From IMG/VR virus record IMGVR_UViG_3300020060_000009: 64,000 nt of DNA, one strand, 5' to 3'. The translations under genes and the position numbers were made by a program. Every line of letters starts with the position of its first letter. The stretch's first letter is position 1. The notes under the pieces are model-generated. The model did no database searches and was not told where the DNA came from. It worked only from the letters and a program-made list of their open reading frames with translations. Shown in pieces: positions 10,255 through 41,344 of the stretch. The stretch is from a virus. Lineage: Duplodnaviria; Heunggongvirae; Uroviricota; Caudoviricetes.

Positions 10255-11538
10255 TTATACTTTTCCTTCTTCTTCCATGTCTAGAGTTCCCTCTGCCATG
10301 TTTTGGTTATCGTAACCCACGAAGGTAGCGCTCTTAGCTTTAAGAGTAAAGGGAGCAATTCCTTCTGCGCGGATTACCACGCCCTCATCACAAGGGCTAT
10401 CTTTATCTAGTGGGACAGCTCCTGGGAAGCCATCTTCTTTGTAACGGTGCATTTCTTCATGTCCAGCAAAGTCAATCCAGTCTTCTGGTTTAAACTCTTT
10501 GTACTTACCGCGCCATAGTAGTGGGACTACTTTCAGTTCACGGTCACGACAGAACTCTGCGATCTGGTCATAAGTCAGGTCGGCAACAACACCCTCTGGG
10601 TTAATCATTCCTACACGGTAAACGTATAAGTCTGCAACTCCCTGTGGAATCTGGTATGTGTACTTGCTCTGTAGTGGAGCACCCTCTGCTGTCCAGCCAA
10701 TAAGCTCACCATAGACCAAGTAGCCCTGTGGAATTTTGCCCATAAGCTTCTCACCTTCTGTGGACCAGATATCTGTGTCATAGAAGTGAACGTGGCTTGG
10801 ATTATTCTTGTCCTTAATAACACGGCGTGAACCGTAAACGTAGTCATACTCTTTTTCTTGGACAACTGCACCAATCTTCTTGGCAACTTTGTCCTTCCAT
10901 GTCATCTTGCGCTGCACGATAGTATTTGCAATACGAATAGATGTTCCGTGTAGTTTCTGTGTAACAGTAACATCTGCATTTTCAGGAATAACATGTGAGT
11001 TTTTGAAGTAGTTATCTGTGTCATAATGCTGTGGCAAGAACTTCTCATCAACACGGCTAAAGATTTTCTTGTTCTTCTCTAGTATTGTTTGTGCGCGAGT
11101 TGCCTTACGAATAAACTTCTTACAAATTTCATGGTCGCCAATGCGGTCAAACGTATCACCCTCAACGAATAATGAAGTATCTAACTTCTTAATGTAAGAG
11201 AGCGCACTTAGCTTGACCACAAGGGCATCCGAGCGATGACCACGCAGTTTAAGAGAGCGGATGTGTCGGTTATCTTCAAGATATCCAGACTCAGCCTGAT
11301 TCTCGTTCTTATCGTTGTGACGGTATAAGTTATTCTTGTAAGCAAATTCCTCTGAAAGCTGCGTACCTGCGGTAAATACCAATGCGAGGTCTCCGTAGTC
11401 AGAGGTCTTTGCTACAAGTGCTTGGCTTCCCAAAACTTGAAGTCCTACAAGGTTGTCTAAACCTTCTAGAGCCACAGGCTTTGGCAAGCGCACTATCACA
11501 CCTGCGTAGTCACTGTTTTCTGGTTCTAATAGTTTCAT
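10255..11538 (-). CDS. rnl: RNA ligase (Rnl2-like nucleotidyltransferase)
   Basis: Motif I QKLHGTSIR matches the KxHGxN covalent nucleotidyltransferase motif of T4 Rnl2-type ligases. Adjacent to pnk, the classic tRNA-repair pair. Confidence 0.65.
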   Translation of the reverse strand: MKLLEPENSDYAGVIVRLPKPVALEGLDNLVGLQVLGSQALVAKTSDYGDLALVFTAGTQLSEEFAYKNNLYRHNDKNENQAESGYLEDNRHIRSLKLRGHRSDALVVKLSALSYIKKLDTSLFVEGDTFDRIGDHEICKKFIRKATRAQTILEKNKKIFSRVDEKFLPQHYDTDNYFKNSHVIPENADVTVTQKLHGTSIRIANTIVQRKMTWKDKVAKKIGAVVQEKEYDYVYGSRRVIKDKNNPSHVHFYDTDIWSTEGEKLMGKIPQGYLVYGELIGWTAEGAPLQSKYTYQIPQGVADLYVYRVGMINPEGVVADLTYDQIAEFCRDRELKVVPLLWRGKYKEFKPEDWIDFAGHEEMHRYKEDGFPGAVPLDKDSPCDEGVVIRAEGIAPFTLKAKSATFVGYDNQNMAEGTLDMEEEGKV

Positions 11539-21168: not shown

Positions 21169-21473
21169 TGACAAGTCTCGTTACTCCAGAATACTGGAAG
21201 ATGTGGCTTGGTGATATGCCGATGCCAGAAGATGCTACTACAGATATGATGTGGGCAGCTCATGATGCAATGCAAGAGTTTGAGGCAAGGGATGAAGACA
21301 TACGAATGATTAATTGGTATGAAGAATCTAAGAAACACTATGTAAAAAAACGTGAGTTCTGGCTTCCACGCACAAATGAACCAGATTATGTTGATAAATT
21401 AAGAATTTACGATAACATATTGGAACAAATTGATGAAGGAATTGAATTTTTAAGGGAGCAATTAAATGGCTGA
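21168..21473 (+). CDS. hypothetical protein (possible helicase loader)
   Basis: 101-aa acidic ORF between the initiator and the helicase, translationally coupled. Confidence 0.4.
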   Translation: MTSLVTPEYWKMWLGDMPMPEDATTDMMWAAHDAMQEFEARDEDIRMINWYEESKKHYVKKREFWLPRTNEPDYVDKLRIYDNILEQIDEGIEFLREQLNG

Positions 21474-22398
21474 GAAAAAAGACTGGAAACAAAAAGCTGT
21501 AAATCGAATTGTTGAGCAGTTCGCCGATATGGATGAGCCTCAACAAGCTAAAGTCATGGATGCTATTAAGTATAACTACGCGCTCCAAGCAGCTAAAGAA
21601 GTCGGTATGACCAAGACTGTTACGTTTGGTGATATGTATGCAACAGCTATCGAGCGCCAAAAACACTTCAATAAGTTCGAGGGCTTTGGTTGCGGTCTCC
21701 CTTACTTCGACCGTGCCACCATGGGCTTTCGTGGTGGTGAGCTGATAATCATTGCAGCGCCTTCTAACTTCGGTAAAACGATGGTAGCTATGAATATTGT
21801 TGCGCAGCTAGCAGCAAATACTCTTAAAAAGGTCGTTATGATTACTATGGAAATGACACCCGCTGAGGTGAGTACTCGTTTGTTCAACATGGTGGATAAA
21901 GCAGATCATGACACACTAAAAGAAAACTTCATTATCCAAACGGAATTAACAGTTAGTGCCGAACACGTAAAAGCGATTGTCAAAAAACATAAACCTGATA
22001 TTCTTTTAATCGACCACTTAGGATTCTTAGCTAAACAAGAACCAGGGACAGAAGAGCGTCAACAGATTGACACAGCTATGGCTAAGATTAAGCGCCTTGC
22101 GATCAATGAGAATATCCCCATCATTATGATTAGTCATGTTAGCAAGACACGTTCTGGCTCAAGTGGCGAGGCGACTGTGTCAGACCTAAAGGGCAGTTCA
22201 GCAATCGAACAAGACTCTGATATTGTCTTCATGATTAACAAGCCAAAAAACCAAAACTTTATGGACCAAGGCATTATAGAGATTGTTTTGAAACTAGAAA
22301 AACATCGTACAAAGTCTCCGAGAGGATTATTTCATCAGAAAGTTTTAATCCAGGTGAAAGGTGTTCGGACTGATGGAAAATACACCGTGTATAATTAA
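21466..22398 (+). CDS. DnaB-like replicative helicase (RecA-fold C-terminal domain only)
   Basis: Walker A IIAAPSNFGKT and a Walker B hydrophobic stretch ILLIDHLGF. 310 aa. Confidence 0.7.
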   Translation: MAEKKDWKQKAVNRIVEQFADMDEPQQAKVMDAIKYNYALQAAKEVGMTKTVTFGDMYATAIERQKHFNKFEGFGCGLPYFDRATMGFRGGELIIIAAPSNFGKTMVAMNIVAQLAANTLKKVVMITMEMTPAEVSTRLFNMVDKADHDTLKENFIIQTELTVSAEHVKAIVKKHKPDILLIDHLGFLAKQEPGTEERQQIDTAMAKIKRLAINENIPIIMISHVSKTRSGSSGEATVSDLKGSSAIEQDSDIVFMINKPKNQNFMDQGIIEIVLKLEKHRTKSPRGLFHQKVLIQVKGVRTDGKYTVYN

Positions 22399-22606
22399 AA
22401 ACATAACCCTCATAGAGGTGACAAATGGAGTTCGCTATACTGGGCCAATAGATATGGAGGGCATGATACTTCACAGTGTTCAGGGTGAAGCGACAACACA
22501 TAGTAATGAACGCAAATATTTTTGCAACAACTGCCTAAAAACATTTAATGGTTCAGAAACATTTGACGAATGTAAAAACCATCTTGGTACATTTCCACTT
22601 GACTGA
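22361..22606 (+). CDS. small zinc-finger protein
   Basis: FCNNCLKTF...ECKNH, a C2HC-like pattern. Confidence 0.35.
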   Translation: MFGLMENTPCIIKNITLIEVTNGVRYTGPIDMEGMILHSVQGEATTHSNERKYFCNNCLKTFNGSETFDECKNHLGTFPLD

Positions 22607-22677
22607 TTAAAATATTATGCTCATACTTAGAGTATGAAACAACCCCAACGAAAAACGCAAAAGTTTATAATTAAAAT

Positions 22678-23319
22678 ATGGAAACAAAAATAGGAATATA
22701 TCAAATAAAAAGAGATGGCACGGTCTTGTACATTGGTCAGTCTAGAAACATAAAAAATAGATGGCTCCAACATAAATATGAACTTAAAAGAAATAAACAT
22801 TGCAATACTTATCTACAATGAATGTACAATAAATATAACGACTTAGAGTTTTCAGTTTTAGAAGATAATATACCCGTCGAAGGGTTGACACCAAAAGAGA
22901 TATTTTATATCAACAAGCTAAAACCTCTTTGTAATATTGCTATACCGAACGGAGACGACAGCTGGACATACACGGAAGATAGAAACAGAAAAGTATCTGT
23001 AGGCAATCTTGGAAAGAAAAAGTCCGCAGAACATGCTCTGCATATAAGTGAAGCAAGAAAAGGTATGAAGCTATCCTATCCCGTGTGGAACAAGGGCAAT
23101 GGTGAATATATGTCGGGAGAAAAAAACTCTTTTTATGGCAAACATCACACACTAGAAGACAGGAAAAGAATATCTGAAACTAAGTCGAAAAGTAAAGTGG
23201 ACATTAAAAAGTTAATTCAATTCAGAAATAGCGGGATGAGCTATGCTGCCGTAGGGAGAGTACTTGGTGTCTCAAGAACCTTTGTAAACAGAAAATATAA
23301 ATTATGGACGGAAAAATAA
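22678..23319 (+). pseudogene. GIY-YIG homing endonuclease interrupted by an in-frame TGA (22819-22821)
   Basis: ATG at 22678 opens ...GIYQIKRDGTVLYIGQSRNIKNRWLQHKYELKRNKHCNTYLQ, then TGA. In the same frame the next ORF continues MYNKYNDLEFSVLE...NKLKPLCN, the rest of the GIY-YIG domain. NUMOD3-like repeats and a C-terminal HTH follow. The frame was checked as (22822-22678) mod 3 = 0. Confidence 0.6.
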
Positions 23320-23681
23320 AAATGAAATTAACGGCCACAGGGACTGTTCCCTCAAAAAAGAATAGTCGTATCAACACAAGAAGTGGGCGAAGTTTTCCAA
23401 GTAAAAGATTCTCATCCTGGGAAGCTCTCGCTCTGCCGGAACTTAAAAAACAATTCAAAGGGTTACGAGTAACAGGTTATCCCATATCAATAACGATGGT
23501 GTTCTTTAATGGAGACCTTCGTCGTCACGATCTCGATAATCAATGCAGCTCTATATTAGACACATTAGTAAAGGCTGGTGTGATAGAAGATGATAATCAG
23601 AAGTTTGTAGATGGTATTCAACTACAGTATGGTGGTCTAGATAGAACGAACCCTCGTTGTGAGATTTTCCTTGACGAATAA
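23304..23681 (+). CDS. rusA: RusA-family Holliday junction resolvase
   Basis: DLRRHDLDNQCSSILDTLVKAGVIEDDNQ aligns to the E. coli RusA catalytic region [29 protein letters not shown]. Confidence 0.75.
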   Translation: MDGKIKMKLTATGTVPSKKNSRINTRSGRSFPSKRFSSWEALALPELKKQFKGLRVTGYPISITMVFFNGDLRRHDLDNQCSSILDTLVKAGVIEDDNQKFVDGIQLQYGGLDRTNPRCEIFLDE

Positions 23682-23718
23682 GCTTGTGCTTTTTTTGATA
23701 TAGGAGCATAATTAAAAT

Positions 23719-24180
23719 ATGAGCGTACTAAGAGATTTTCACGAACAGCATTTACATATCGTAAAGAGATATTGGCCTCGTGAAATTTTTAATCCATTTA
23801 ACTGGATAAGAACTATCAAGTGGCGACATCAACGAGCAGAGAGAGGATGGAGTGATAGAGATACCTGGGGCGGAGGAGAATATATTGCAGGAATAAGTGC
23901 AGGAATCCTTAACTACCTACAAAGCGAAAAGGGCCATGTTGATTGGGATGAATATTTTAATTTTAATTATCCCGAGAATCTCGGATATACATCTCTCAAT
24001 GAAGTTGCACAGGATATTGATAATTATTTAGCATGGGAAGAAGATTCTTTTAGTGACCCTATATATTCTATGTTAAAAGATGAGAATGAAACTCGATGGG
24101 CAATTGAATTTCAACTTTATGAAGATTATAGAAACGCAATGCACTTTGTTGCCGAAAATATAGGACAACTTTGGGACTAA
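23719..24180 (+). CDS. hypothetical protein
   Basis: 153-aa Trp-rich ORF. Confidence 0.45.
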   Translation: MSVLRDFHEQHLHIVKRYWPREIFNPFNWIRTIKWRHQRAERGWSDRDTWGGGEYIAGISAGILNYLQSEKGHVDWDEYFNFNYPENLGYTSLNEVAQDIDNYLAWEEDSFSDPIYSMLKDENETRWAIEFQLYEDYRNAMHFVAENIGQLWD

Positions 24181-24207
24181 AAAAGAGTTAGTTTCCTAAC
24201 TCTTTAA
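24181..24207 (+). terminator. rho-independent terminator
   Basis: aaagagttag-tttc-ctaactcttt hairpin followed by an AT/T-rich tail, directly after the stop of 23719..24180. Confidence 0.55.
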
Positions 24208-24492
24208 TAATTTCATGACCAGCGATTGACATAACCGAGTTAACGGCAGTCTGCTTTGATATCTTCCCCTGCTGGCCATACACAGTTACGAAGTGCAACT
24301 TATATTTGGAAGACTCTCTTACAGACCTCTGTGTCTATTATACTATTTTGCGGAAACGTCCGTCAGTGGAAACGGCTGATAGAATCCTTATACCATCCTG
24401 CGCGAGGAGCCACTATAACCTGCCAATTCAGGCAGCTAGGAAGTCGGTTTAATCTTCTAAGCCTTGCCCTTATTCTTTATCAAATTAAAATA

Positions 24493-24844
24493 TGGTGGAG
24501 ATGGGGGGAATCGCACCCCCGTGCCAAAAATCCACAATTAGCTTTCTATTACAAGTTTATCCAGTTTCTACTGGCAAAAGACAGTGTGACACCACCACTT
24601 ATTTTTATAGTTCAAATAAGAAACTTGTGCATTGCGTTCGGTATGCTCGTAGTCTTCATTATTGGCCGAAGACCGCCATTCTCTCGATTAAACCAGTGAG
24701 AAAGCTGGTGCTGGAACAAATGCTTGTTTAAACATTGCTACAGCGGATTTGAATGCGTTTGCATTTAGGTTTTGTTGTCTTTGACGCGGACAGGCGACTT
24801 GCTTACTAACTGTTAAAAATTCAAGGTCGAATCTAAGTCATCCC
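24493..24844 (-). ncRNA. ssrA: tmRNA (ssrA), phage-encoded
   Basis: 5' end GGGGATGACTTAGATTCGAC (E. coli has GGGGCUGAUUCUGGAUUCGAC). 3' end GGGGGTGCGATTCCCCCCATCTCCACCA, i.e. T-arm plus an acceptor that pairs with the 5' GGGGATG, plus CCA. About 352 nt. A candidate tag ORF ANAFKSAVAMFKQAFVPAPAFSLV* is only tentative. The overlapping ORFs 24256..24699 and 24492..24731 are therefore spurious. Confidence 0.75.
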
Positions 24845-24887
24845 CATAAATCTATTATACACCAGAGGTAAAATAATTGCAACATAA

Positions 24888-28845: not shown

Positions 28846-29241
28846 CTAATAACCAGTTTTTAAGTAAATTTCTCTACGTTTTTCTGGTGTATAAGCCTTT
28901 CTTCGACACGCTGATTTTGCGTCTCGGCAAGGCTGGCAATGACAACCTCTGTTGTACATTCCAATCTGACCATGATCTGCTAATATTTTCCTTGATGCTG
29001 CGACATTACAAGGCAGGTGGCTATAACCTATATTCTCCAAGTCAAAAAATAATTTGATTGGGTCTTCGCTATCTAACCAAGGTTCCATATGCTCTATAGA
29101 AAATGTTTCTCTATCTAGTGGCTTTTTACACCTGTAGCATACATGACCAGCTTTAACGGCAAAGTCGAATAATAAGTCTTTTAACAGCCGACCATTAGCT
29201 GTGCTAGGATTCATTCCTAGCTGTTCTTTCTTTTTGTCCAT
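28846..29241 (-). CDS. HNH homing endonuclease
   Basis: CYRCKKP...HMEP...N...H motif with flanking Cys pairs (CHCQPC). Lies between tRNA genes. Confidence 0.65.
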   Translation of the reverse strand: MDKKKEQLGMNPSTANGRLLKDLLFDFAVKAGHVCYRCKKPLDRETFSIEHMEPWLDSEDPIKLFFDLENIGYSHLPCNVAASRKILADHGQIGMYNRGCHCQPCRDAKSACRRKAYTPEKRREIYLKTGY

Positions 29242-29944: not shown

Positions 29945-30030
29945 TATTTGAACTTAGTCGAGATCGTCGGACTTGGACCGACATCGCCAGTCCCCGTGAC
30001 TGGTGTTCTTCTTAAACTATCTCTCGTTAT
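29945..30030 (-). tRNA. tRNA-like element, probable pseudo-tRNA
   Basis: T-arm-like GTCGG-TCCAAGT-CCGAC and a 5-bp anticodon-like stem CCAGT/ACTGG with loop CACGGGG (no U33). No encoded CCA, and two acceptor mismatches. Confidence 0.3.
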
Positions 30031-30282: not shown

Positions 30283-30285
30283 TTT

Positions 30286-30362
30286 GGCAGGGAATGTAAG
30301 AATCTAACTCACGCCAAGAGGTTTGGAAGCTCTTGTGCTAACATTACACCAATCCCCTATAT
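30286..30362 (-). tRNA. tRNA-Trp (anticodon CCA)
   Basis: Anticodon loop TTCCAAA. T-loop GTTAGATTC. Acceptor AGGGGAT/ATTCCCT. A C-C mismatch closes the anticodon stem. Confidence 0.5.
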
Positions 30363-39352: not shown

Positions 39353-39430
39353 ATTGTCGCATAGCAGGATTTGAACCTGCGCCATGAACCCCTAAAATGG
39401 GGCTGCTCTACCGCTGAGCTATATGCGACA
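39353..39430 (-). tRNA. tRNA-Lys-like (anticodon UUU), no encoded CCA
   Basis: 8-bp acceptor GTCGCATA/TATGCGAC. T-arm GCAGGTTCAAATCCTGC. Anticodon region CCCC-ATTTTA-GGGG with an imperfect stem. The 3' end is followed by AATT, not CCA. Confidence 0.45.
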
Positions 39431-39434
39431 TATT

Positions 39435-39512
39435 TGGTGACTCACGAAGGATTCAAACCTTCAACCTTCACGTTCGTAGCGTGATGCTCTATTCGATTAA
39501 GCTAGCGAGCCA
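39435..39512 (-). tRNA. tRNA-Arg (anticodon ACG)
   Basis: T-arm gaaggattcaaaccttc. Plus-strand anticodon stem cacg/cgtg with loop ttcgtag. Confidence 0.6.
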
Positions 39513-39742: not shown

Positions 39743-40105
39743 TTATGAGAGAGGCGAGATAACTTTTTCTCCACTCCGCAGTATTTGTGCTTTGCCAAAG
39801 GTTTTTATATCTACGGTTAGCGTCTTAATAACATGGCAATTTGCACAGAGCATTTGTAGATTATCCTTTGTTATTTTACCTCTATACAGTTTTCGCCAAG
39901 TCTGATCACCACCAAAATCTTCTTTATTTTTTCTAAGTAGGGGCTTTATATGATCTATTTGAAATGCCAATATATTTTCACAGTAACCACATTTAGCGCA
40001 TCTGTTATTAAACATCTCTGATACTTTTTCTCGTATCATCAATTGTTCTTTTTGTTTCCAAAGACGTTCATATTCACGCTGTTTGTTTTTATCTTTATAT
40101 GGCAT
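39743..40105 (-). CDS. HNH endonuclease
   Basis: CAKCGYC...IDHIKP...N...LCANCH, the HNH core with zinc-coordinating Cys pairs. Inside the tRNA array. Confidence 0.7.
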   Translation of the reverse strand: MPYKDKNKQREYERLWKQKEQLMIREKVSEMFNNRCAKCGYCENILAFQIDHIKPLLRKNKEDFGGDQTWRKLYRGKITKDNLQMLCANCHVIKTLTVDIKTFGKAQILRSGEKVISPLS

Positions 40106-40401: not shown

Positions 40402-40472
40402 TGGTAGCCACGCTGGGAATTGAACCCAGTATTAAGGTTTAGAACGCCTGTTACTTATCCTAAGACGTAGCC
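40402..40472 (-). tRNA. short tRNA-like gene with defective anticodon arm
   Basis: 71 nt. Acceptor GGCTACG/CGTGGCT and T-arm CTGGGTTCAATTCCCAG are good, but the anticodon region has only a 3-bp AGG/CCT stem around CGTTCTAAA. Possible anticodons UCU or CUA cannot be decided. Confidence 0.35.
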
Positions 40473-41113: not shown

Positions 41114-41190
41114 AATTTGGAGGGTCTGATGGGTGCTGCCCCCATGACATTTTGCTTAAAAGGCAAATGCTCTACTGTTGAGCTACAGAC
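41114..41190 (-). tRNA. tRNA-Lys (anticodon UUU)
   Basis: Plus-strand anticodon stem tttgc/gcaaa with loop ttaaaag. T-arm ATGGG-GGCAGCA-CCCAT (unusual T-loop, plus strand reads tgctgcc). CCA encoded. Confidence 0.5.
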
Positions 41191-41344
41191 CCCTACTAAA
41201 AAAGGGACTGATTTGTCCCCTATTATTTTTCATGCTATAAGCTAAAAATAATAGGGCTACAGTTTGGCCTTGCCTCCGCGAATGACCATAGCAGTAGCTT
41301 GCACAATTGGGGTTGTACGCTTCGTCATAACTGCTATTCTTTCA

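What the first reader, a model, noticed from the sequence alone, without database searches (positions are those of the whole stretch)
22678..23319. GIY-YIG homing endonuclease gene split by a single in-frame TGA
The GIY-YIG catalytic domain reads straight through a TGA at 22819-22821 (...NTYLQ * MYNKYNDLEF...) with no frameshift. The downstream part contains the rest of the domain plus DNA-binding repeats. This is either a pseudogenised or decaying endonuclease, a two-piece enzyme, or a case of programmed UGA read-through or recoding. No tRNA with a UCA anticodon was confidently found in the two arrays, but several aberrant tRNA-like genes could not be decoded.
Basis: seen in the sequence. Interest (0 to 1): 0.55.

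Follow-up and report, generated by a model that had tools for sequence, protein, structure and literature searches.

The report
Homing endonuclease gene with one stop
A selfish DNA-cutting gene that recently jumped into this uncultured phage carries one real premature stop codon, which most likely marks ordinary early decay of such a gene and is not an unusual genetic code.

Summary
ORF 22678-22821 (47 aa) ends in TGA at 22819-22821. It is followed in frame, with no gap, by ATG 22822-23319 (165 aa). Read together they form one I-TevI/Seg-like GIY-YIG homing endonuclease with a NUMOD3 motif and a weak HTH match, and all catalytic residues are intact. The TGA is a real base: contigs from three sequencing runs and one ENA assembly match the window exactly. 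They represent a single clone. The gene sits on a 688-bp, low-GC cassette inserted exactly at the rusA start codon. Eight contigs of related phages have the site empty. No orthologue of this endonuclease exists in any collection searched, so conservation of the stop cannot be tested. Recoding is not supported. TGA terminates 29 of 109 predicted genes, no other gene is split by TGA, no tRNA has a UCA anticodon, and no RNA structure follows the stop. The stop lies at a variable surface-loop position (N/R/A in relatives, never W). It separates the GIY, YIG, Arg and His residues from the catalytic Glu and Asn. The best reading is a recent nonsense mutation in a free-standing homing endonuclease gene. 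The adjoining UGA-AUG could allow stop-restart synthesis of a two-piece enzyme or of a DNA-binding fragment alone. This is not excluded and not shown. Interest is low.

The parts
22678..22821 (+). N-terminal ORF (47 aa plus TGA). It holds the GIY, YIG, Arg28, His32 and His41 half of the GIY-YIG domain (strands 1 and 2 and helix 1).
   Evidence: Pfam GIY-YIG profile positions 2-39 (E 1.6e-05); I-TevI alignment; AF2 model.
22819..22821 (+). The in-frame opal (TGA) codon. It aligns with I-TevI Arg47. Relatives have N/R/A/S at this position and never W.
   Evidence: Identical in 4 other assemblies.
22822..23319 (+). C-terminal ORF (165 aa) starting at the ATG that abuts the TGA. It holds strand 3 and helix 3 with the catalytic Glu74 and Asn86, then a linker, a NUMOD3 motif and a helix-turn-helix. 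It has no Shine-Dalgarno sequence of its own.
22641..23328 (+). A 688-bp cassette (5' leader, endonuclease gene and a second copy of ATGAAA) that is absent from related phages. Its GC is 33.9%, against 39.9% for the window.
   Evidence: Alignment with L013, L014, L016, L017 and L020; GC.
22634..22640 (+). Left copy of the 7-bp junction repeat ATGAAAC. This is the displaced original rusA start codon.
   Evidence: alignment.
23322..23328 (+). Right copy of the junction repeat ATGAAAT. This is the present rusA start codon.
   Evidence: alignment.
22634..22693 (+). A 19-codon upstream ORF opened by the displaced rusA start. It ends 16 nt inside the endonuclease ORF in another frame. A role in translation is inferred only.
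   Evidence: Read from the sequence together with the alignment.
22599..22627 (+). Promoter-like TTGACT-17-CATACT just upstream of the insertion. It is also present in relatives that lack the endonuclease, so it is probably the rusA promoter now used by the cassette (inferred).
22361..22606 (+). Conserved 77/81-aa upstream neighbour with a zinc-finger-like match. It ends in TGA, and its orthologues stop at or one codon after the same place.
23322..23681 (+). rusA (Holliday-junction resolvase), the conserved downstream neighbour.
   Evidence: Pfam RusA 3.1e-06; orthologues.
30285..30358 (-). Phage tRNA-Trp (CCA). It is the only phage tRNA that could read UGA by near-cognate pairing. It is not a UCA suppressor.
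   Evidence: Rfam tRNA 50.8 bits; sequence; relaxed ARAGORN.

Best explanation
This is a free-standing GIY-YIG homing endonuclease gene of the I-TevI/Seg type: an N-terminal nuclease domain, a linker, a NUMOD3 motif and a helix-turn-helix. It entered one lineage of an uncultured phage of about 99 kb as a 688-bp cassette placed exactly at the start codon of rusA, and the insertion regenerated that start codon. After or shortly before arrival, the gene took a single nonsense mutation, most simply AGA or CGA (Arg) to TGA. The mutation lies at a variable surface-loop position between helix 1 and strand 3 of the nuclease domain. Normal translation therefore ends after 47 residues. This separates the GIY, YIG, Arg and His half of the active site from the Glu and Asn half and from the DNA-binding modules. 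The nuclease is most likely dead or strongly crippled, which is the expected decay stage of a selfish homing gene once it is fixed in its population. Two by-products are mechanistically likely but unproven. One is re-initiation at the abutting AUG, giving a 165-aa fragment able to bind DNA. The other is rare read-through of UGA by tRNA-Trp, giving traces of full-length enzyme. Shown here: the anatomy, the insertion, the reality of the base, and standard use of TGA as a stop. Inferred: the ancestral codon, the loss of activity, and both by-products.
For: The domain runs uninterrupted across the stop and every catalytic residue is present: Y8, Y18, R28, H32, H41, E74 and N86, matching I-TevI Y6, Y17, R27, H31, H40, E75 and N90. 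The AF2 model of the fused protein has pLDDT above 90 over residues 10-80 and superposes on I-TevI 1MK0 and 1LN0 at 1.3-1.4 A, with TM 0.73-0.81 on the target. The stop at residue 48 falls in the loop between helix 25-37 and helix 50-53 / strand 57-63. Eight contigs of related phages (helicase more than 80% identical at protein level, L013-L020) have the 77-81-aa ORF followed after about 25-35 nt by rusA, with no endonuclease gene. The cassette's GC lies in the lowest 2% of the window. TGA is an ordinary terminator here: 29 of 109 genes, and 17 of 72 genes of at least 100 aa. The endonuclease is the only same-frame ORF pair split by a TGA. No credible tRNA has a UCA anticodon. No structure follows the stop (z +0.63). 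Relatives have N (44), R (43), A (10) or S (8) at the stop position and W in 0 of 120. Neither ORF has a Shine-Dalgarno sequence, although neighbouring genes do. Defunct homing endonuclease genes that persist in phage genomes are documented, for example T4 I-TevIII (PMC2790892).
Against: Apart from the one codon the gene is pristine, so activity may not be lost. An ATG sits directly after the TGA, at a position where 120 relatives have A, H, S, T or G and never M. That sample is biased towards consensus-like sequences. The arrangement is what a selected stop-restart junction would look like. The break lies in a surface loop, where split proteins are most often tolerated. All contigs carrying the endonuclease are one clone and there is no orthologue, so neither decay nor conservation can be measured.
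Confidence: 0.6

Rival explanations
1. Two-piece enzyme or stand-alone DNA-binding fragment made by stop-restart. Ribosomes that terminate at UGA re-initiate at the abutting AUG. The 47-aa and 165-aa chains then reassemble into an active GIY-YIG nuclease. Alternatively the 165-aa fragment alone serves as a site-specific DNA-binding protein, for example a repressor or a protector of the target site.
For: The UGA and AUG are directly adjacent. Met is not seen at this position in 120 relatives. The break lies in a loop between secondary-structure elements of a confidently modelled domain. All catalytic residues and the rest of the frame are intact. Translational coupling is a recognised way of expressing phage homing endonucleases (PMC2988022).
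Against: None of the other family members recovered is split this way. Hits P0002-P0009 each carry both domains in one chain, and the 150 best family representatives have full-length sizes. The 47-aa fragment (a hairpin plus one helix) is unlikely to be stable alone. Conservation cannot be tested. The Met could simply be lineage-specific, and any start codon within a few codons of the stop would have looked equally suggestive.
Confidence: 0.2
2. Leaky or programmed UGA read-through keeps a toxic nuclease at trace level. tRNA-Trp from the host or from the phage (30285-30358) occasionally reads UGA, giving a little full-length enzyme that is still enough for homing.
For: The downstream frame is fully intact with its catalytic residues. 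The phage carries its own tRNA-Trp (CCA). UGA is the leakiest bacterial stop codon (general knowledge, not tested here). Phage homing endonucleases are known to be held down at the level of translation (PMC2988022).
Against: No stimulatory RNA structure follows the stop (z +0.63, 146 of 200 shuffles fold at least as well). Trp never occurs at this position in relatives. The stop cannot be shown to be conserved. Basal leakiness would apply to any UGA and does not make the arrangement programmed.
Confidence: 0.12
3. Genetic-code recoding. TGA is read as an amino acid (Trp, Gly or Sec) in this phage or its host, by a suppressor tRNA or an alternative code.
For: The phage has about 30 tRNA genes, some aberrant. 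Some distant homologues of this endonuclease in other metagenomic phages do carry in-frame stops that look recoded, but those are TAG at Gln positions.
Against: TGA ends 29 of 109 genes, including conserved neighbours whose orthologues stop at or one codon after the same place. This is the only in-frame TGA within a gene in 64 kb. No tRNA has a UCA anticodon: the relaxed ARAGORN 'SeC' calls are one at 39423-39494 on the strand opposite tRNA-Arg (39435-39511) and one inside an RNA ligase gene with no Rfam support. There is no SECIS-like hairpin.
Confidence: 0.03
4. Sequencing or assembly error at 22819.
For: None beyond the prior probability that any base is wrong.
Against: The sequence is identical in contigs assembled separately from SRR7015886, SRR7015887 and SRR7015891 and in ENA ERZ27268008. 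No intact 213-aa allele exists among 5.8 billion protein clusters.
Confidence: 0.02

Closest known systems
I-TevI (phage T4 td-intron GIY-YIG homing endonuclease; PDB 1MK0, 1LN0)
   Same: It has the same catalytic fold and the same catalytic residues (32% identity over the domain, rmsd 1.3 A). The overall plan is also the same: an N-terminal nuclease joined by a linker to C-terminal DNA-binding modules ending in a helix-turn-helix.
   Different: I-TevI is intron-encoded and is a single uninterrupted polypeptide. Here the gene is free-standing and is interrupted by TGA at the position of I-TevI Arg47. The I-TevI zinc finger was not detected.
T4 Seg proteins (SegA-SegG), free-standing GIY-YIG homing endonucleases
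   Same: Both are intergenic insertions between genes conserved among related phages, present in some relatives and absent in others (PMC2988022). Both depend on neighbouring expression signals.
   Different: The Seg proteins have demonstrated cleavage and homing activity, and nothing of that kind is shown here. This gene carries a premature stop. Sequence identity to any phage homologue in INPHARED is below 35%.
[quoted passage not shown]
   Same: It is a phage homing endonuclease gene disabled by a lesion yet still resident in the genome (PMC2790892). This matches the decay phase of the homing cycle.
   Different: I-TevIII is an HNH enzyme disabled by an internal deletion, and an intact allele is known in phage RB3. 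Here the lesion is a single nonsense codon and no intact allele is known.
Stop-codon-recoded phages (TAG or TGA read as sense)
   Same: Both show an in-frame stop inside a conserved domain. Distant homologues L029, L031 and L032 show the true pattern.
   Different: In recoded phages the same stop codon recurs within genes at positions of one amino acid, and coding density rises when it is read as sense. In L032, ORF content rises from 2841 to 5592 bases. In this window there is one TGA at an N/R/A position, and TGA is a common terminator.

Membership tests
GIY-YIG homing endonuclease (I-TevI/Seg type) | A GIY-YIG catalytic domain with the conserved Tyr, Tyr, Arg, His, Glu and Asn residues | tested here: met
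   Pfam PF01541 at 28.5 bits against a cut-off of 22.6 when read across the stop. I-TevI alignment with all residues conserved. Fold match at rmsd 1.3 A.
GIY-YIG homing endonuclease (I-TevI/Seg type) | C-terminal DNA-binding modules (NUMOD and HTH) tethered by a linker | tested here: met
   NUMOD3 at 25.5 bits against a cut-off of 20.4. The HTH_38 and HTH_23 matches are below cut-off. PHROG 314 spans residues 1-210. The model of this part has low confidence.
GIY-YIG homing endonuclease (I-TevI/Seg type) | One uninterrupted reading frame encoding nuclease and DNA-binding parts on one chain | tested here: not met
   TGA at 22819-22821, confirmed in four other assemblies.
GIY-YIG homing endonuclease (I-TevI/Seg type) | Presence/absence polymorphism at a fixed site between conserved genes in related genomes | tested here: met
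   Eight related contigs have the empty site. The 688-bp insertion has a 7-bp junction repeat.
GIY-YIG homing endonuclease (I-TevI/Seg type) | Site-specific cleavage of the allele that lacks the endonuclease gene, and gene conversion (homing) | not testable with these tools
   This needs expression and cleavage assays or phage crosses.
Stop-codon recoding (TGA read as sense, suppressor tRNA) | Recurrent in-frame TGAs in conserved genes, with TGA rare as a terminator | tested here: not met
   There is a single case in 64 kb. TGA ends 29 of 109 genes.
Stop-codon recoding (TGA read as sense, suppressor tRNA) | A tRNA with a UCA anticodon | tested here: not met
   ARAGORN and Rfam give about 30 tRNAs, none with UCA. 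The relaxed-threshold 'SeC' calls are artefacts. Only the 64-kb window of the roughly 99-kb genome was scanned.
Bacterial selenoprotein | A SECIS hairpin directly 3' of the UGA | tested here: not met
   The fold of 22790-22900 gives -9.9 kcal/mol, z +0.63. There is no Rfam hit.
Programmed read-through gene (Q-beta A1 type) | The stop codon is conserved among orthologues and the extension is functional | not testable with these tools
   No orthologue was found in any collection.

The most novel reading that the evidence does not exclude
The UGA-AUG junction is a selected stop-restart site. Under this reading the phage makes a naturally split GIY-YIG homing endonuclease: a 47-aa half-domain plus a 165-aa half-domain with DNA-binding modules, which reassemble. 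Alternatively it makes a domesticated DNA-binding fragment. Either would be a built-in way of throttling or repurposing a toxic nuclease.
Probability: 0.15. Interest if true: 0.55.

Novelty: new member of a known kind. Interest (0 to 1): 0.17.

Why it matters
As it stands the finding matters little. Disabled homing endonuclease genes are an expected stage of the life cycle of these selfish elements, and the family is enormous (155,986 representative proteins at E <= 0.001). The case does have some practical use. It is a clean example of an endonuclease gene landing exactly on a start codon and regenerating it. It is also a worked negative control for stop-codon recoding, because true TAG-recoded homologues turned up in the same search and could be compared directly. 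Only if the stop-restart junction proved functional would it add something new, namely a naturally split GIY-YIG nuclease.

Tried and rejected
Megablast of 21400-24300 against 50,697 phage records found no match. The phage has no sequenced close relative there.

An exact-pattern scan around the TGA, with NNN in place of the stop, found 0 matches in IMG/VR and 0 in JGI metagenome contigs. A single-protein scan of IMG/VR with the helicase gave only 23-residue matches that were of no use.

A protein-guided scan of metagenome contigs with the fused endonuclease found only distant homologues, at most 47% identity over 78 aa. The search of 5.8 billion protein clusters found only the identical 165-aa ORF and hits at 28-45% identity. 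No orthologue comparison or dN/dS estimate was therefore possible.

Total ORF length under alternative codes was uninformative, because it rises equally when TAG or TGA is read as sense.

Selenocysteine was rejected: there is no hairpin, no tRNA-Sec, and the position is not catalytic.

A frameshift or 4-nt duplication origin for the AATGAATG sequence was considered by eye and rejected, because removing one copy breaks the frame.

The promoter scan found no more sites than shuffled sequence (10 found against 11.2 expected). The promoter-like element is proposed only because it is conserved in relatives.

The phage tRNA-Trp has a U11-A24 pair. From memory, this is the pair created by the E. coli Hirsh UGA-suppressor mutation. 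I did not pursue it, because many tRNAs have this pair and nothing here tests it.

Full report
1. THE OBSERVATION. The sequence and the ORF list show ORF 22678..22821, which reads METKIGIYQIKRDGTVLYIGQSRNIKNRWLQHKYELKRNKHCNTYLQ and ends in TGA at 22819-22821. ORF 22822..23319 follows in the same frame with no spacer. It begins with ATG (MYNKYNDLEFSVLEDN...) and is 165 aa long. When the two are read together, Pfam GIY-YIG covers residues 5-83 across the stop (E 2e-06, 28.5 bits against a cut-off of 22.6). The first ORF alone matches only the first half of the profile (positions 2-39). The second ORF carries a NUMOD3 motif (25.5 bits against 20.4) and a helix-turn-helix that scores below cut-off. 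PHROG 314 'homing endonuclease' matches residues 1-210 as one stretch (E 3.9e-18). The coding frame has only the internal TGA and the terminal TAA, while the other two frames have 15 and 19 stops.

2. THE BASE IS REAL. The 165-aa product occurs as an exact sequence on several contigs. Contigs from Logan assemblies of SRR7015886, SRR7015887 and SRR7015891, and from ENA assembly ERZ27268008 (99,020 bp), have no mismatch to the window over 1.7-7.2 kb, TGA included. This rules out an assembly artefact. It also shows that all copies belong to one clone, so they say nothing about long-term maintenance of the stop. No intact allele of about 213 aa exists among the 5.8 billion protein clusters searched.

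3. THE GENE AND WHERE THE STOP FALLS. The I-TevI catalytic domain (PDB 1MK0, 1LN0) aligns to residues 4-84 without a gap at the stop (E 2e-07). The stop corresponds to I-TevI Arg47. The equivalents of I-TevI Y6, Y17, R27, H31, H40, E75 and N90 are all present. An AlphaFold2 model of the fused protein has pLDDT above 90 over residues 10-80. It superposes on I-TevI at rmsd 1.3-1.4 A, with TM 0.73-0.81 on the target. In the model the stop at residue 48 lies in the loop between helix 25-37 and the short helix 50-53 / strand 57-63. The first product therefore holds strands 1 and 2 and helix 1, with the GIY, YIG, Arg and His residues. Strand 3, helix 3 with the catalytic Glu74, Asn86 and all DNA-binding parts lie downstream. 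Neither piece can form the active site alone.

4. THE FAMILY. The family is very large: 155,986 representative proteins at E <= 0.001 and 20,012 at <= 1e-30. In 120 of the best-scoring members, the position of the stop is N (44), R (43), A (10), S (8), H (5) and others, and never W. The next position is A (68), H (40), S (8), T (3) or G (1), and never M. This sample is biased towards consensus-like sequences. The simplest history is an Arg codon (AGA or CGA) mutated to TGA. This is an inference.

5. A MOBILE INSERTION. The flanking helicase has many relatives at 50-92% protein identity on contigs of up to 94 kb. In eight contigs from this group (L013-L020) the 77-81-aa ORF that follows the helicase is followed by rusA after about 25-35 nt. 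The alignment places a 688-bp insertion in the window at 22641..23328, exactly at the rusA start. The relatives read ...AGTATGAAAC|TAAC.... The window reads ...AGTATGAAAC|AACCCC...[endonuclease gene]...AAAATGAAAT|TAACGG.... ATGAAA(C/T) is therefore present at both junctions, and rusA keeps a start codon at 23322. The cassette has 33.9% GC and the endonuclease ORF 34.6%, which is in the lowest 2% of windows of that size. This is consistent with foreign origin. The displaced original rusA start (22634) now opens a 19-codon ORF that ends at 22693, overlapping the endonuclease start at 22678. A promoter-like TTGACT-17-CATACT at 22599-22627 is conserved in relatives. The cassette probably uses the rusA signals, which is an inference. 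Intergenic insertion between conserved genes, with presence/absence polymorphism among relatives, is the pattern of the T4 seg genes (PMC2988022).

6. NO ORTHOLOGUE. None of the searches found an orthologue of the endonuclease. The best hits were 36-47% identical.

7. RECODING WAS TESTED AND NOT SUPPORTED. In a greedy, non-overlapping gene set of 109 ORFs, TGA terminates 29 (17 of the 72 ORFs of at least 100 aa). All other same-frame neighbouring pairs separated by a single stop are separated by TAA, and the endonuclease is the only TGA case. The conserved ORF just upstream ends in TGA, and its orthologues end at or one codon after that point.

ARAGORN and Rfam together give about 30 tRNA genes on the minus strand. 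The ones missed by default ARAGORN or called aberrant decode as Trp-CCA (30285-30358), Lys-UUU (41121-41192), Pro-CGG (29957-30026) and Arg-UCU (40402-40472). One further tRNA has a 6-nt anticodon loop AUUUUA (39355-39429). None has a UCA anticodon. Two 'SeC (tca)' calls appeared at a relaxed ARAGORN threshold. One (39423-39494) lies on the strand opposite tRNA-Arg (39435-39511). The other lies inside an RNA ligase gene and has no Rfam tRNA signal even at E <= 10. The 111 nt around and after the stop fold no better than shuffles (z +0.63), so there is no SECIS-like or read-through-stimulating structure.

A useful contrast appeared by accident. Distant homologues in other metagenomic contigs (L029, L031, L032) carry one or two in-frame TAGs at positions where the family has Gln. 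In L032, reading TAG as sense nearly doubles ORF content. That is what real recoding looks like, and the window does not look like it.

8. MECHANISM. The best-supported reading (confidence about 0.6) is a free-standing GIY-YIG homing endonuclease gene that took one nonsense mutation and is now inactive or strongly attenuated. This is the expected decay phase of a selfish homing gene once fixed in its population, as with the defunct I-TevIII of T4 (PMC2790892). The lesion must be young relative to neutral decay, because nothing else in the gene is damaged.

Two rivals remain open. The first (about 0.2) is stop-restart. The AUG abutting the UGA has no Shine-Dalgarno sequence but could be used by terminating ribosomes. 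That would give a 165-aa fragment which either reassembles with the 47-aa piece or acts alone as a DNA-binding protein. Points in favour are the unusual Met at this position and the loop location of the break. Points against are that no family member recovered is split this way and that the small fragment is unlikely to be stable. The second (about 0.12) is that basal or enhanced UGA read-through by tRNA-Trp gives traces of full-length enzyme. Nothing here marks that as programmed. Recoding (about 0.03) and sequencing error (about 0.02) are effectively excluded.

9. COMPARISON AND NOVELTY. By fold, residues, domain order and genomic behaviour this works like, and belongs with, the I-TevI/Seg family. 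It fails one defining feature, an uninterrupted frame. It is best described as a disrupted new member of a known and very abundant kind. Interest is low. The only reading that would raise it is a functional split nuclease (probability about 0.15).

Noticed in passing
window 24493-24845 (-); L013 5821-6154, L014 6071-6486, L016 5876-6212, L017 7081-7445: A phage-encoded tmRNA gives a full-length Rfam RF00023 match at 86.3 bits. It is conserved (50-82 bits) in four related phages that lack the endonuclease. Default ARAGORN missed it, and relaxed ARAGORN calls it a permuted tmRNA.
   Followed up: partly
window 30285-30358 (-), 41121-41192 (-), 29957-30026 (-), 40402-40472 (-): Four tRNA genes were missed by default ARAGORN: Trp-CCA (with a C31-C39 mismatch and a U11-A24 pair), Lys-UUU (with an odd T-loop, GGCAGCA), Pro-CGG and Arg-UCU. 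With these the phage set covers all 20 amino acids.
   Followed up: partly
window 39355-39429 (-): A tRNA with a good Rfam score (52.3 bits) has a 6-nt anticodon loop AUUUUA, which ARAGORN reports as a two-base anticodon. Its decoding role is unknown.
   Followed up: no
window 39743-40105 (-) and 28846-29241 (-): Small ORFs are embedded in the two tRNA arrays. The first is an HNH endonuclease (Pfam HNH 1.3e-08). The second has an HNH-like Cys/His/Asn pattern by eye but no Pfam hit. They are probably further homing-type nucleases, and both are uninterrupted.
   Followed up: partly
L029 772-1017, L031 322-585, L032 2501-2743: Distant GIY-YIG homologues from other metagenomes have in-frame TAG codons at positions where the family has Gln (YIG*S, FSF*VLE). 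In L032, reading TAG as sense nearly doubles ORF content. These are probably TAG-recoded phages.
   Followed up: partly
window 22634-22693 (+): The original rusA ribosome-binding region and start codon, displaced by the insertion, now open a 19-codon ORF that overlaps the endonuclease start codon in another frame. It may couple or limit endonuclease translation.
   Followed up: no
window 10255-11538 (-): A 427-aa ORF has an RNA ligase domain (Pfam PF09414, 5.6e-13). Together with about 30 tRNA genes and a tmRNA, this suggests the phage invests heavily in maintaining translation or repairing tRNA.
   Followed up: no
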